Origin: Porticoccaceae bacterium
GTDB lineage: Bacteria > Pseudomonadota > Gammaproteobacteria > Pseudomonadales > Porticoccaceae
Length of the DNA stretch: 64,000 nucleotides
Assembly: GCA_049615065.1 (NCBI GenBank)
Contig: JBMZEV010000001.1
Location: 9,195 to 73,194, forward strand
Direction: 5' to 3'
Shown here: positions 2,284 through 22,489 of the stretch, one piece after another
Layout of the letters: each line of letters begins with the position of its first letter
Position numbering within the stretch: the first letter of the stretch is position 1
Translations under genes and position numbers: made by a program
Notes under the pieces: model-generated
What the model was told of the DNA's origin: nothing
Databases searched by the model: none
The model's input: only the letters and a program-made list of their open reading frames with translations

Positions 2284-2288
2284 AGTTA

Positions 2289-2457
2289 TCCCTGGAGTGT
2301 TTGCCAGTCAAGAAGTCCCTGAGCCGATACTATTTTTTAGGCAACTCTTTGATAACAATGTTGTGCCATGCCGCTAGCCGGACCGCCTGATTTGTTGCTT
2401 GGGTCGCCCCCTTGAACTCTTCGGTTCAAGGCCACGTTGACAGCGGCACTTTGGGCT
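2289..2457 (+). ncRNA. ssrS: 6S RNA
   Basis: Canonical zapA-ssrS-ygfA position; hallmark segments tccctgagccgata and ccttgaac(tcttcg)gttcaagg, with complementary ends. Ends approximate. Confidence 0.92.
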
Positions 2458-2497
2458 ACCAACTATTTGCATAAGTTTTTTTGCGCAAGACTATAAT

Positions 2498-19787: not shown

Positions 19788-20774
19788 TTAGCTATTTTTA
19801 CTAGAGATACTCTCTCTGTCTGCATCAAGGTCTTGCTGCCAGCCATTTATTAATTGCACTATCTGGTTTGATACCCAGCTGTGAATAGGTGAACTGGCTG
19901 TTCTGTTATGCTGTAAAAGCGCCATTGGAATTGTGCCCACATGAGGTAATCCCGACGGGTAGCGCTTTCGAACAATGCGATACATTTCACGGTCTAATGC
20001 CATACCATACTTAGCCGCAACCATCAGGCAGTCAGTACCACAAACAGTTTCCATCGCAGTCATTAGCTGATTGGTGACCAACGCTTTTTTGCGCTTTCTT
20101 CCCAAGTCTCTTAGCGCCTTATCAAATCGTGCATCAGTTCGGGCACTAACCCGCTTGGCAATCAACAAGTAATACTGCACAAAGGGATATTCTAAGATTT
20201 CGTCGAGGGTCACCTGATCTTTTTGGGATAGGGGGTGTCCCTCTCTCATCCAAATAGAAGGGGTAAAAATAGCTAGTCTTTTAGAGGAAATGTCTTCACT
20301 AACGCCTCGCTCAACATCAATCGCAAAATCCAAAACGCCTTCAGCCAATTCACCCTCTACAGAATCAGTTTCACTGGATATTGATAATATGACATTGGGC
20401 GCGTGCTCGGTAAATACACGAGTCAGCTCTGAAACTAATGAAATTGCAACAAATTCTGGCACGGCAATATTAATTTCCCCCACATAGGTAGCAGGATCAA
20501 ATTCACCCTCACTGACCATTTCAAGCACCGTGTCTAGGAGGCTAGGAAGTCGGATTTGCAGCTCTCTCGCTCTTGGTGTTGGCACTAACTCGTTGCCAGT
20601 TCTGGTAAACAGCGGGTCCTCTAACTGATCTCGCAACCGCTGTAAAACTCTACTCATAGCAGGCTGCGTTATAAATAACCGCTCCGCTGCCTTAGTCACA
20701 CTTTTTTCTTCCAGTAGTGCCTGAAGGGAAACCAATAAATTTAAATCCAATCGAGATAGTCTTTGAAGATTCAT
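19788..20774 (-). CDS. LysR family transcriptional regulator (NodD/LeuO/YidZ-like branch)
   Basis: LDLNLLVSLQALLEEKSVTKAAERLFITQPAMSRVLQRLR HTH plus DPLFTR; strong AGGAGG RBS. Confidence 0.93.
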   Translation of the reverse strand: MNLQRLSRLDLNLLVSLQALLEEKSVTKAAERLFITQPAMSRVLQRLRDQLEDPLFTRTGNELVPTPRARELQIRLPSLLDTVLEMVSEGEFDPATYVGEINIAVPEFVAISLVSELTRVFTEHAPNVILSISSETDSVEGELAEGVLDFAIDVERGVSEDISSKRLAIFTPSIWMREGHPLSQKDQVTLDEILEYPFVQYYLLIAKRVSARTDARFDKALRDLGRKRKKALVTNQLMTAMETVCGTDCLMVAAKYGMALDREMYRIVRKRYPSGLPHVGTIPMALLQHNRTASSPIHSWVSNQIVQLINGWQQDLDADRESISSKNS

Positions 20775-20791
20775 AGTCGCCTCCTATGGTT

Positions 20792-20857
20792 ATTACCAAA
20801 ACGCATAATAATAATGCAAACAATGCATTAGAATTATGACATGAAGCGCCTTATAGT
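20792..20857 (+). promoter_or_regulatory. Promoter P1: two LysR-type boxes plus sigma70 -35/-10
   Basis: ATTACCAAAACGCAT (20792-806), 7 bp, ATGCAAACAATGCAT (20814-828), TAGAAT, 17 bp, TATAGT (20852-857). Confidence 0.7.
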
Positions 20858-20864
20858 ATCAACC

Positions 20865-21042
20865 ATAAAGCAATGGCAGATCAGCTTAAAGATTTAAACG
20901 TTTTGCGCTAAAAGCAAATAGCGAAAAACTTAAGGCAGTCTAAAAGTTAAGAACTAAGATGCCAAAGAATGCGGTATGAAACAAACCCCTCTTAATCCTT
21001 GCTAAAGGATTTTTTTAGGACCCTCCCAGGGTCCTTTTTTTT
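20865..21042 (+). ncRNA. Candidate small RNA 1 (about 178 nt) divergent from LysR
   Basis: Promoter P1 upstream; long 5' rod (ATA/TAT, TGGCA/TGCCA, CTTAA/TTAAG, GTTTT/AAAAC, CGCTA/TAGCG); CAAACCCCTCTT; hairpin AATCCTT/AAGGATT; U tract; terminator. Confidence 0.7.
21017..21042 (+). terminator. Intrinsic terminator of candidate sRNA1
   Basis: AGGACCCT-CCC-AGGGTCCT followed by a T run; no annotated + strand CDS upstream. Confidence 0.85.
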
Positions 21043-21057
21043 ACCCGCGAACAGGTC

Positions 21058-21123
21058 ATAACAAAATGTAATGGCTATTATGCGTTAAATGCATTGGATT
21101 AATATCAATCGCGACATTAAAGT
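21058..21123 (+). promoter_or_regulatory. Promoter P2: same architecture as P1
   Basis: ATAACAAAATGTAAT (21058-072), 7 bp, ATGCGTTAAATGCAT (21080-094), TGGATT, 17 bp, TAAAGT (21118-123). Confidence 0.7.
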
Positions 21124-21130
21124 GCTCGCC

Positions 21131-21227
21131 ATAGAGAGATAGCCGCTAGTCAGCGCTTTCTATCAAACCCCTCTTTGCGAATTATCCAAAGAATTTATCG
21201 GGGGCCAACCCTTGGCTCCCTTTTTTT
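21131..21227 (+). ncRNA. Candidate small RNA 2 (about 97 nt), paralog of sRNA1
   Basis: 5' hairpin ATAGAGAG/CTTTCTAT with apical CGCT/AGCG; CAAACCCCTCTT at 21164-175; terminator. Confidence 0.7.
21200..21227 (+). terminator. Intrinsic terminator of candidate sRNA2
   Basis: GGGGGCCAA-CCC-TTGGCTCCC plus T7; the U tail is on the + strand, not on the strand of the convergent yhfA. Confidence 0.85.
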
Positions 21228-21241
21228 GCCTGACATTTAGC

Positions 21242-21655
21242 CTACTGAATTTCGTAGCTGTGGCTCATTTCAACCCCAGCAGCACCGAGCATAATTGAAG
21301 CCGAGCAATATTTCTCTGCAGACAAGTCAACTGCGCGCTTTACTTGGTTTTCTTTTAAATTATTACCGCTAACAATAAATTTAATATGTATTTTGCTAAA
21401 TACAGCGGGCACTGCATCTACGCGCTCTGCCTCTACTTCTGCCTTACAATCAACAATGTCTTGACGCCCTTTTTTTAACATAGCAATAACATCGTAGGAT
21501 GCGCAGCCGCCAAGGCCTAGCAGCAGCATTTCCATTGGGCGTACTCCCATATTTCTTCCACCCTGCTCTGGCGCACCATCCATAACTACCGAATGTCCAC
21601 TGCCGGATTCACCGACAAACATTACGCCATCAACCCATTTTACTACTGCTTTCAT
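21242..21655 (-). CDS. yhfA: OsmC family protein YhfA
   Basis: RPMEMLLLGLGGC and SAEKYCSAS motifs; divergent from crp as in other gammaproteobacteria. Confidence 0.9.
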   Translation of the reverse strand: MKAVVKWVDGVMFVGESGSGHSVVMDGAPEQGGRNMGVRPMEMLLLGLGGCASYDVIAMLKKGRQDIVDCKAEVEAERVDAVPAVFSKIHIKFIVSGNNLKENQVKRAVDLSAEKYCSASIMLGAAGVEMSHSYEIQ

Positions 21656-21812: not shown

Positions 21813-22489
21813 TTGAACAACCAGAAAATTACCTTTCCACTGCGCAATATAGGTCAGCTTCTTAAGCACTGCCGCAGGCGTAGCTATAAAGCCAGAGGTA
21901 TTATCATTCACCTTGGAGACTACAGCAGTTCTCTTTTTTATATTTTGAGCGGATCTGTTGCGGTTATTGGTGAAGATAGCGACGGCAAAGAAATAACCTT
22001 AGCCTATCTTAATCCGGGTGACTTTTTTGGCGAGATGGGTCTGTTTGAAAAAAAATGTCGCAGCGCACGCATAAGAGCTAAAACAAAATGTGAGGTTGGT
22101 GAAATTAGTTATAGTAATTTTTTTGCTCTCAGCGCCAAGCATCCGGAATTTATCTTTGCTGTAGCGCGACAAATTTCCATGCGCCTTGAGCATACATCAC
22201 GAAAAGCCTGCGATCTTGCCTTCCTTGATGTCAGCGGTCGCGTGGCAACAACAATTATCGACTTGTGCCATGAGCCAGATGCTCAAAAAAACCCAATGGA
22301 ATACATATTAGTATCACTCGCCAAGAATTAGCGAAACTCGCGGGATGTTCAAGAGAAATGGCGGGCAAGGTTCTCAAAAACTTGGCCGCTAGAAAGCTCG
22401 TATCACTCTATGGCAAAACAATTGTTATCCCTAACGGCAATCAACAGAAGCTATCTTTTATAAACGAAAGCCACAACTTTCCTAACTAA
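21813..22489 (+). pseudogene. crp: cAMP receptor protein Crp/Vfr split by a -1 frameshift at the A7 run 22285-22291
   Basis: Frame 0 (21813-22331) encodes the cNMP domain (GDFFGEMGLF, RSA, LAFLDVSGRV). The -1 frame continues PNGIHISITRQELAKLAGCSREMAGKVLKNL...GKTIVI to TAA at 22487-22489. Could be a true lesion, recoding or a sequencing error. Confidence 0.85.

What the first reader, a model, noticed from the sequence alone, without database searches (positions are those of the whole stretch)
20865..21227. Shared RNA architecture and an anti-Shine-Dalgarno-like seed CAAACCCCUCUU
Seen: both RNAs start with AUA that pairs with UAU closing a 5' hairpin whose apical stem is CGCU/AGCG (a long rod in RNA1, a short one in RNA2). 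The exact 12-mer CAAACCCCUCUU follows (20982-20993, 21164-21175), then a small hairpin, an A/U-rich linker and a terminator with a CCC triloop in both. The terminator stems differ in sequence but stay paired. Inference: the 12-mer is the seed and pairs with GAGG/AGGGG-type ribosome-binding sites; the U-rich 3' module resembles an Hfq-binding module.
Basis: partly seen in the sequence, partly recalled or inferred. Interest (0 to 1): 0.75.

Follow-up and report, generated by a model that had tools for sequence, protein, structure and literature searches.

The report
LysR-linked sibling small RNAs, SAR92
Two small regulatory RNA genes beside a LysR-type regulator in a marine SAR92 bacterium belong to an undescribed RNA family with a conserved, exposed C-rich pairing site; its best candidate target is the messenger RNA of the light-driven proton pump proteorhodopsin.

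Summary
Two terminated transcription units (about 20865-21042 and 21131-21227, + strand) lie between a divergent LysR-type gene and a convergent OsmC gene. They share the 12-mer CAAACCCCUCUU, which occurs nowhere else in the genome.

Both units have superimposable promoters: an ATGC-N7-GCAT LysR box centred at -44, then a -10 hexamer, 7 nt and the start A.

The RNA1 'long rod' closed by AUA/UAU is not supported. The CCC triloop and CGCU/AGCG stem are lineage-specific.

No Rfam family matches. The 3' module (single-stranded ACCCCUCU, small hairpin, U-rich spacer, terminator) is conserved in SAR92 and three allied Porticoccaceae genera, while the stems covary.

In most relatives the first unit also encodes a conserved 35-46 aa membrane peptide. 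That makes it a dual-function RNA of the SgrS type. The window's streamlined lineage has lost this ORF.

A general anti-Shine-Dalgarno role is not statistically supported. The proteorhodopsin ribosome-binding site is complementary to the seed across the whole clade: it ranks 3rd of 1267 sites here and has lineage-specific extensions elsewhere.

No experiment has tested function. This scan already reported the same family on another SAR92 genome (e1-5137111). The peptide and the proteorhodopsin lead are new here.

The parts
19788..20774 (-). LysR-type transcriptional regulator gene (328 aa), divergent from RNA1. Presumed activator of both RNA promoters.
   Evidence: Pfam HTH_1 plus LysR_substrate. 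Nearest NCBIfam models are BsrA, CitR, LelA, YidZ and LeuO, all far below their cut-offs. Orthologues sit next to the RNA genes in 80 loci.
20814..20842 (+). LysR box of the RNA1 promoter: palindrome ATGC-N7-GCAT (20814-20828, centred at -44) plus an overlapping proximal half-site reaching the -35 region.
   Evidence: The same box at the same distance precedes nearly every unit in the 80 loci.
20852..20857 (+). -10 hexamer TATAGT of RNA1; 7 nt further on is the start A at 20865.
   Evidence: conserved TATAnT-N7-CATA geometry.
20865..21042 (+). RNA1, about 175 nt. It has a variable 5' domain of local hairpins (conserved apical hairpin about 20900-20929) and the conserved 3' module.
   Evidence: No conserved ORF.
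20985..20993 (+). Seed core ACCCCUCUU of RNA1, inside the 12-mer 20982-20993.
20994..21011 (+). Hairpin 2 of RNA1 (AAUCCUU/AAGGAUU). Its 5' arm is invariant in sequence and may extend the seed.
   Evidence: It covaries to UAUCCC/GGGAUA in genus g31. In some lineages the proteorhodopsin start region is complementary to UCUUAAUC.
21017..21042 (+). Intrinsic terminator of RNA1: 8-bp stem, CCC loop, U8 tail.
21080..21108 (+). LysR box of the RNA2 promoter (palindrome 21080-21094, centred at -44), with the same geometry as at RNA1.
21118..21123 (+). -10 hexamer TAAAGT of RNA2; 7 nt further on is the start A at 21131.
21131..21227 (+). RNA2, about 95 nt: 5' hairpin (21131-21164), exposed CAAACCCC, hairpin 2 (21172-21192), terminator.
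21167..21175 (+). Seed core ACCCCUCUU of RNA2, inside the 12-mer 21164-21175. The UCUU part is paired within hairpin 2.
21200..21227 (+). Intrinsic terminator of RNA2: 9-bp stem, CCC loop, U7 tail.
21242..21655 (-). OsmC-family gene, convergent with the RNAs. It is therefore not a downstream gene that the RNAs could control in cis.

Best explanation
WHAT IT IS
The stretch holds two sibling trans-acting small RNAs. Each has its own promoter, activated (inferred) by the divergently encoded LysR-type regulator through an ATGC-N7-GCAT box at -44. Each ends at an intrinsic terminator.

The RNAs belong to an undescribed family confined to SAR92 and three allied Porticoccaceae genera. The functional core of the family is its 3' module: a single-stranded C-rich seed (A)ACCCCUCU(U), a small hairpin, a U-rich spacer and a U-tailed terminator of the Hfq-binding type.

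In most relatives the first unit is a dual-function RNA that also encodes a 35-46 aa single-pass membrane peptide upstream of the seed. The window's streamlined lineage has lost that ORF and keeps two purely non-coding siblings.

HOW IT LIKELY WORKS (inferred)
When the regulator is activated by an unknown signal, the RNAs accumulate. The exposed C-run pairs with G-rich AGGGG-type ribosome-binding sites and blocks translation initiation.

The best candidate target is proteorhodopsin mRNA, whose site would be covered from about -23 to -6. Other AGGGG-type starts are weaker candidates: a TonB-dependent receptor, a GH16 glucanase, an aldehyde dehydrogenase and GDPD.

SHOWN
Gene anatomy, conservation, covariation, predicted accessibility, the coding signature of the peptide, and complementarity.

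INFERRED
Transcription, LysR dependence, Hfq binding, and the target and direction of regulation.
For: ANATOMY
- Two terminators and no Rfam family.
- The two promoters align base for base. The same LysR box and -10 geometry precede nearly every unit found in 80 loci.

CONSERVATION
- 94 distinct 3' modules keep ACCCCUCUU.
- 57 distinct terminator hairpins all form 7-11 bp.
- Hairpin 2 covaries between genera.
- A covariance model finds the module in g1 16/16, g35 5/5, g31 13/16 and g25 2/4 genomes. Two weak hits in g23 lack the seed; the other 15 Porticoccaceae genera sampled have none.
- The C-run is predicted unpaired, and hfq is present.

NOT A CIS ELEMENT
- The downstream gene is convergent in the window and in two of three other loci checked.

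PEPTIDE ORF
- It is present in 43 of the 80 loci behind a strong SD. Variable columns by codon position are 9/3/25.
- It is absent from the window genome.
- Homologous ORFs accompany the RNA in g25 and g31.

PROTEORHODOPSIN
- Its start region gives -15.9 kcal/mol and ranks 3rd of 1267 with the 16-nt core.
- The AGGGG(U) SD is kept in 25 of 27 SAR92 genomes.
- GAUUAAGAAGGGU is a 12-of-13 complement in G007, G015 and g35.
- In g31 the RNA flank UAUACCC faces GGGUAUA.
- Shuffled seeds reach the real energy in only 0-6% of trials.
- The CcmB control is not conserved.
- Rhodopsin-bearing g23 genomes without the RNA use a canonical AAGGAG SD.
- Genus distributions of the RNA and of rhodopsin largely coincide.
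Against: - There is no transcript evidence. The only RNA-library contigs that lay on the stretch (two, depth about 3) run across terminator 1 into the RNA2 promoter, and could be DNA or read-through.
- The seed gives fewer strong pairings with start regions than shuffled seeds.
- Exact complements are not enriched and give no recurrent orthologous start site.
- The proteorhodopsin lead was found post hoc among about 10 candidates.
- In many SAR92 genomes the pairing is only the 7-8 bp that also serve as the SD, so SD conservation alone could explain it.
- The co-occurrence of RNA and rhodopsin probably reflects one clade, that is, one or two evolutionary events.
- Three genomes at least 90% complete (G023, G042, G050) have the RNA but no rhodopsin gene was found.
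- In RNA2 half of the 12-mer is buried.
Confidence: 0.6

Rival explanations
1. The C-rich motif is a protein-binding site rather than a base-pairing seed. The RNAs would act by titrating or recruiting an RNA-binding protein, in the way sponge RNAs do.
For: The motif is invariant and single-stranded. No statistically enriched mRNA complement set was found. RNA1 has an A-rich 5' domain with ARN-like runs.
Against: There are no repeated GGA or CA-type motifs of the known sponge RNAs. There is only one copy of the motif per RNA. The extended, lineage-specific complementarity to the proteorhodopsin start region is not expected for a protein site.
Confidence: 0.12
2. The conserved module is a 3'-UTR and terminator element that serves the small-peptide mRNA, for stability or termination. 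On this reading the window's two ORF-less units are decaying remnants with no function of their own.
For: In most relatives, and in g25 and g31, the module lies downstream of the peptide ORF. The window lineage lost the ORF.
Against: ORF-less units (type B, short type A, and both window units) keep their own LysR-box promoter and an almost invariant seed, while their 5' parts diverge freely. This holds across loci whose LysR protein is only about 70% identical. That pattern is purifying selection on the RNA itself. All 14 genomes of the ORF-less subclade with complete loci keep both units.
Confidence: 0.1
3. The element is a cis-acting leader, attenuator or riboswitch controlling a downstream gene.
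For: The layout is promoter, structured RNA, terminator. The C-run could pair with the G-run of the terminator's 5' arm.
Against: The next gene is convergent in the window (OsmC) and in HTCC2207-type loci. No co-directional downstream gene is conserved. The terminators are strong, at -12 to -19 kcal/mol with 7-8 U.
Confidence: 0.02
4. It is a type I toxin-antitoxin locus: hydrophobic peptide as toxin, sibling RNA as antitoxin.
For: A small hydrophobic peptide is encoded next to a small RNA in relatives.
Against: The sibling RNAs share the same sequence as the peptide mRNA's 3' part rather than being complementary to it. The window has no peptide gene at all.
Confidence: 0.02

Closest known systems
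SgrS/SgrT with the divergent activator SgrR (enterobacteria; from general knowledge)
   Same: A regulator gene is transcribed divergently from a 200-300 nt RNA. That RNA carries a small ORF of about 40 aa in its 5' half and a base-pairing region just upstream of the terminator. Some lineages keep only the riboregulator, as the window does.
   Different: There is no sequence or Rfam similarity. The regulator is LysR-type, not SgrR-type. The peptide is a new single-pass membrane protein with no family. The RNA is duplicated into siblings. The seed is C-rich.
AbcR1/AbcR2 with the LysR-type regulator VtlR/LsrB
   Same: Tandem sibling sRNAs sit next to, and are presumably activated by, a LysR-type regulator. 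Their pairing motifs resemble an anti-Shine-Dalgarno sequence.
   Different: A different phylum-level group (Gammaproteobacteria, Porticoccaceae). No homology (no Rfam hit). The seed lies in a linear segment before hairpin 2 rather than in loops. Relatives carry a peptide ORF.
CcsR1-4 ('cuckoo' RNAs) downstream of the small ORF ccaF1 in Rhodobacter; also RsaE/RoxS and sX13 (C-rich-motif sRNAs; from general knowledge)
   Same: These are repeated sRNAs with C-rich motifs that pair with G-rich ribosome-binding regions. The CcsR RNAs lie on the same transcript as a small ORF. C-rich terminator loops also occur here.
   Different: Here the motif is ACCCCUCU in a single-stranded linker, not CCUCCUCCC or UCCC in loops. 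Control is LysR-type rather than by a stress sigma factor. No homology was detected.
OxyS/OxyR and GcvB/GcvA (from general knowledge)
   Same: An sRNA gene is divergent from the LysR-type regulator that activates it, with overlapping promoters.
   Different: The regulator is not an OxyR or GcvA equivalog. The seed chemistry differs, since GcvB's is G/U-rich. Here there are two siblings.

Membership tests
Any curated Rfam family | Covariance-model score at or above the family's gathering threshold | tested here: not met
   In the whole window only 6S RNA (2286-2461) passes. In 20700-21350 the best hits are ncS54 at 20.2 bits against 43 and mmgR at 19 against 41, which match only the terminators. 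The same holds for a long-form homologue.
Hfq-type trans-acting sRNA (class) | Free-standing gene with its own promoter and an intrinsic terminator with a U tail | tested here: met
   The flanking genes are divergent and convergent.
Hfq-type trans-acting sRNA (class) | Conserved, accessible seed | tested here: met
   The core ACCCCUC(U) is conserved across four genera. The C-run has unpaired probability 0.81-0.92. In RNA2 only the 5' two-thirds is exposed.
Hfq-type trans-acting sRNA (class) | Hfq present and bound; target regulation through pairing | not testable with these tools
   An hfq gene is present. Binding and regulation need experiments.
LysR-regulator-controlled divergent sRNA (OxyS, GcvB, AbcR type) | Adjacent divergent LysR-type gene and a T-N11-A box in the sRNA promoter | tested here: met
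   Boxes are centred at -44 in both units and conserved in 80 loci.
LysR-regulator-controlled divergent sRNA (OxyS, GcvB, AbcR type) | Transcription depends on the regulator | not testable with these tools
   Inference from adjacency and the box only.
Dual-function sRNA (SgrS/SgrT type) | A translated small ORF under purifying selection on the same transcript as the seed | tested here: not met
   Not met in the window: tblastn finds no copy (best E 1.9), and RNA1 has only non-conserved 12-aa ORFs without an SD. Met in relatives: 43 of the 80 loci, with codon-position variability 9/3/25.
Type I toxin-antitoxin | Antitoxin RNA complementary to the toxin mRNA | tested here: not met
   The siblings share sequence with the peptide mRNA and are not complementary to it.
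Cis-regulatory leader or attenuator | A conserved co-directional downstream gene | tested here: not met
   Searches show convergent neighbours. One locus has a co-directional gene after a strong terminator.

The most novel reading that the evidence does not exclude
A LysR-controlled, dual-function RNA family (a new membrane peptide plus a C-rich seed) sets the synthesis of proteorhodopsin post-transcriptionally in SAR92-type marine bacteria, by pairing with its unusual AGGGG-type ribosome-binding site. Streamlined lineages such as the window's have kept only the riboregulator, as two siblings. This would be the first RNA regulator of proteorhodopsin phototrophy.
Probability: 0.3. Interest if true: 0.8.

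Novelty: new member of a known kind. Interest (0 to 1): 0.55.

Why it matters
SAR92 and related Porticoccaceae are abundant coastal bacterioplankton, and almost nothing is known about their post-transcriptional regulation. No paper in the library searched links SAR92 to sRNAs, and none describes sRNA control of proteorhodopsin.

This locus offers a compact, testable regulatory module: one LysR regulator, one to three sibling RNAs and an optional membrane peptide. It has a clear evolutionary series from a dual-function RNA to a pure riboregulator during genome streamlining.

If the proteorhodopsin link holds, it would show how photoheterotrophs tune the cost of their light-driven pump. It would also give a handle, the regulator's unknown signal, on when they do so. 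Cultured strains carrying the locus exist (HTCC2207, H921, H231, nBUS_09, MOLA455), so the tests are feasible.

Tried and rejected
1. RNA-library runs. Four metatranscriptome runs held only 4-6% of the words. Two contigs of 151 and 172 nt, depth about 3 and 90-95% identical, lie on 20975-21122 and cross terminator 1. This is no evidence for or against transcription.

2. General anti-SD test. The real seed gives fewer strong duplexes with about 1150 start regions than each of 20 shuffled seeds.

3. Exact-complement hunts across 41 genus genomes. AGAGGGGT followed by ATG gave recurrent strings that turned out to lie inside unrelated genes. TAAGAGGGGT was no more frequent than its reversed control once the RNA genes' own antisense matches are removed. 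The other hits were terminators or the antisense of coding sequence.

4. CcmB and GH16 as conserved targets. Complementarity at CcmB is not conserved (mean -8.7, 6 of 30 at -12 or below). A full-length GH16 orthologue exists only in two close relatives.

5. Two top-ranked small ORFs (C53, C20) have no Pfam family and may not be genes.

6. The OsmC and lysR start regions show no seed complementarity.

7. Intramolecular pairing of the seed with the peptide's SD: only a 4-bp long-range helix in one minimum-free-energy fold, absent from the centroid.

8. The peptide has no Pfam or NCBIfam family. All sequence relatives are hypothetical proteins, and the only taxon named for any of them is Porticoccaceae.

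9. Complex prediction of the peptide with proteorhodopsin returned no verdict (score 0.00). This is not evidence either way.

10. MAFFT-based consensus folding of mixed units under-called the terminator because stems are out of register. Per-sequence folding was used instead.

11. Weak covariance-model hits in genus g23 are terminators of protein genes without the seed.

Full report
ORGANISM AND SETTING

The window is contig C1:9195-73194 of a 1.3 Mb, 87%-complete assembly. Orthologues of the neighbouring LysR gene are found almost only in records named SAR92 clade, Porticoccaceae or HTCC2207.

The finding lies in a 467-bp gap. On one side is a LysR-type gene (19788-20774, minus strand; Pfam HTH_1 plus LysR_substrate). 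On the other is an OsmC-family gene (21242-21655, minus strand). The gap is therefore flanked by one divergent and one convergent gene. Any plus-strand transcript made there is free-standing.

CHECKING THE OBSERVATION

The 12-mer occurs exactly twice in the genome, at 20982-20993 and 21164-21175, and its reversed control never occurs.

Two terminator-like hairpins with CCC triloops and U7-8 tails lie at 21017-21035 and 21200-21220. A small hairpin follows each 12-mer.

The upstream regions of the two units align base for base. Each has an ATGC-N7-GCAT palindrome (20814-20828 and 21080-21094) and a second half-site reaching the -35 region. A -10 hexamer follows (TATAGT 20852-20857, TAAAGT 21118-21123), then 7 nt, then the A of AUA (20865 and 21131). 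The proposed 5' ends are therefore reasonable.

RNA2's 5' hairpin is the minimum-free-energy fold (z = -3.6). It is kept in relatives through compensatory changes.

The long rod proposed for RNA1 is not supported:
- The closing AUA/UAU pairs have probability 0.003, and enforcing them costs 1.4 kcal/mol.
- The UAU is not conserved, and the consensus fold of 15 clade members keeps only the apical hairpin.

In RNA2 the UCUU part of the 12-mer is paired inside the next hairpin.

A CONSERVED, UNDESCRIBED FAMILY

No Rfam model reaches its threshold, for the window or for a long homologue.

In the 80 loci fetched through the LysR protein I found 94 distinct 3' modules. They are of two kinds:
- Type A: ACCCCUCUU, then AAUCCU...AGGAUU, U-run, terminator.
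- Type B: ACCCCUCUUUG...CAAAGA, spacer, terminator.

The core is nearly invariant. The terminators come in 57 different versions, all forming 7-11 bp. Nearly every unit found is preceded by the same LysR box and -10 geometry.

A covariance model of the type A module finds it in g1 (SAR92) 16/16, g35 5/5, g31 13/16 and g25 2/4 genomes. Two weak hits in g23 lack the seed, and the 15 other Porticoccaceae genera sampled have none.

In those other genera the seed core ACCCCUC persists while hairpin 2 changes by compensatory substitutions: UAUCCC/GGGAUA in g31 and CCUUG/CAAGG in g25.

The C-run is predicted unpaired (0.81 for type A, 0.92 for type B, against 0.47 for whole RNAs). An hfq gene is present. 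Downstream genes are mostly convergent, which rules out a leader function.

AN UNEXPECTED PEPTIDE IN RELATIVES

In 43 of the 80 loci the unit is 240-306 nt long. It carries a strong SD (AAGGAGAUA) and a conserved ORF, MTLVYILIGFTGLAGAAIAKDDF..., of 34-44 aa. The ORF ends 15-93 nt before the seed.

The ORF shows a clear coding signature. Over 28 codons the variable columns by codon position are 9, 3 and 25.

The peptide has no Pfam or NCBIfam family. All its sequence relatives are hypothetical proteins, and the only taxon named for any of them is Porticoccaceae. Homologous ORFs accompany the RNA in g25 (MALVYIMMSFAGLTGAAIARDE...) and g31 (MEIVYGAMIFSCVLLAAIATQDF...).

The window genome has no copy (tblastn, best E 1.9). 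RNA1 and its 14 closest homologues have only short, non-conserved ORFs without an SD.

The family therefore resembles SgrS/SgrT: a divergent regulator, a 5' small ORF and a 3' seed. As with SgrS, some lineages retain only the riboregulator. ORF-less units keep their promoter and seed under obvious constraint, so the RNA module has a function of its own.

WHAT THE SEED MIGHT PAIR WITH

- The seed makes fewer strong duplexes with start regions than shuffled seeds.
- Exact complements are neither enriched nor recurrent at orthologous starts in 41 genomes.
- Only about 3% of start regions contain AGGGG.

Those few AGGGG-type starts include hallmark genes: proteorhodopsin, a TonB-dependent receptor, a GH16/CBM6 glucanase, an aldehyde dehydrogenase, GDPD and CcmB.

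Proteorhodopsin stands out:
- With the conserved 16-nt core, its start region ranks 3rd of 1267, at -15.9 kcal/mol and z = -3.7. The duplex is 7 bp (AACCCCU/AGGGGUU) plus 5 bp after a one-base bulge, and covers the SD.
- The AGGGG(U) SD is kept in 25 of 27 SAR92 genomes.
- In G007, G015 and genus g35 the site reads GAUUAAGAAGGGU. That is a 12-of-13 complement reaching into the invariant 5' arm of hairpin 2, at -16 to -17 kcal/mol.
- In g31 the RNA flank UAUACCC faces GGGUAUA, and the cognate pair is the most stable in a cross-matrix.
- Shuffled seeds reach the real energy in only 0-6% of trials in RNA-bearing lineages, but in 53% for g23. The g23 genomes have rhodopsin, no RNA and a canonical AAGGAG SD.
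- A control gene, CcmB, loses its complementarity outside the closest relatives.
- The genus distributions of the RNA and of rhodopsin largely coincide.

CAVEATS

- The proteorhodopsin lead is post hoc, from about ten candidates.
- In many genomes the pairing is no longer than the SD itself.
- The co-occurrence probably reflects a single clade.
- Three genomes at least 90% complete have the RNA but no rhodopsin gene was found.
- No transcript evidence was obtained.

I put about 0.85-0.9 on 'real LysR-linked sRNA family', about 0.6 on 'acts by pairing through the C-run', and about 0.35-0.4 on 'proteorhodopsin mRNA is a direct target'.

COMPARISON WITH WHAT IS KNOWN, AND NOVELTY

The kind is known: LysR-controlled divergent sRNAs (OxyS, GcvB, AbcR1/2), sibling sRNAs, C-rich-motif sRNAs (RsaE, sX13, CcsR) and dual-function sRNAs (SgrS). 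Membership in any of those families fails on homology.

The family itself is new to Rfam. It is also new to the literature library searched.

This scan had already reported the family on another SAR92 genome, reading it as LysR-linked sibling sRNAs closest to AbcR/VtlR (note e1-5137111). My independent tests agree with that reading. They add the peptide ORF and its loss, the genus distribution, the failure of the general anti-SD statistic, and the proteorhodopsin candidate.

Noticed in passing
L075:2749-2871 (minus strand) and homologous positions in 43 of loci L038-L090; also L166, L102, L159, L167, L163: A conserved small ORF (34-46 aa; one hydrophobic helix plus a charged tail; MTLVYILIGFTGLAGAAIAKDDF...) lies on the same transcription unit as the seed module. 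It has no known family and a clear coding signature. It is absent from the window genome.
   Followed up: yes
G000:C27:5626-6315 (outside the window; locus L176/L184): The proteorhodopsin gene has an unusual, genus-wide conserved SD, UAGGGGUU, complementary to the seed. Rhodopsin-bearing genomes of a sister genus without the RNA use AAGGAG instead.
   Followed up: yes
window 2286-2461 (+): 6S RNA (SsrS), Rfam 84.4 bits. It is the only curated RNA family detected in the window.
   Followed up: no
window 21813-22331 (+) and 22358-22489 (+): The ORF after OsmC has only a cyclic-nucleotide-binding domain (172 aa), and a short ORF follows it. Another first-stage note (e1-5457884) reads this as a crp/vfr gene split before its HTH. 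I did not examine it.
   Followed up: no
window 20833-20862 (minus strand): A promoter-like site, TTGATA-18-CATAAT with an extended TG, probably serves the LysR gene. It overlaps the RNA1 -10 and start region, so the two divergent promoters would share the LysR box, as in autoregulated LysR loci.
   Followed up: partly
L166 and L102 (genus g25): Here the peptide ORF ends directly at the LysR box of the next unit, with no terminator of its own. The peptide mRNA must read through into the sRNA unit, so the sRNA may arise both from an internal promoter and from the 3' end of the longer mRNA.
   Followed up: partly
Terminator loops of the family (window 21025-21027, 21209-21211; relatives): Terminator loops are C-rich in most lineages (CCC, GCCA, ACCA, CCCCU, UCCCC). 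They could offer a second C-rich pairing site, as in C-rich-loop sRNAs. Not tested.
   Followed up: no
L156, L162, L168 (genus g31): Units with the LysR box and seed module sit at loci where no divergent LysR-sized ORF lies within about 1.5 kb (flanking ORFs were not identified). There are two unlinked copies per genome. The regulator would have to act in trans there.
   Followed up: partly
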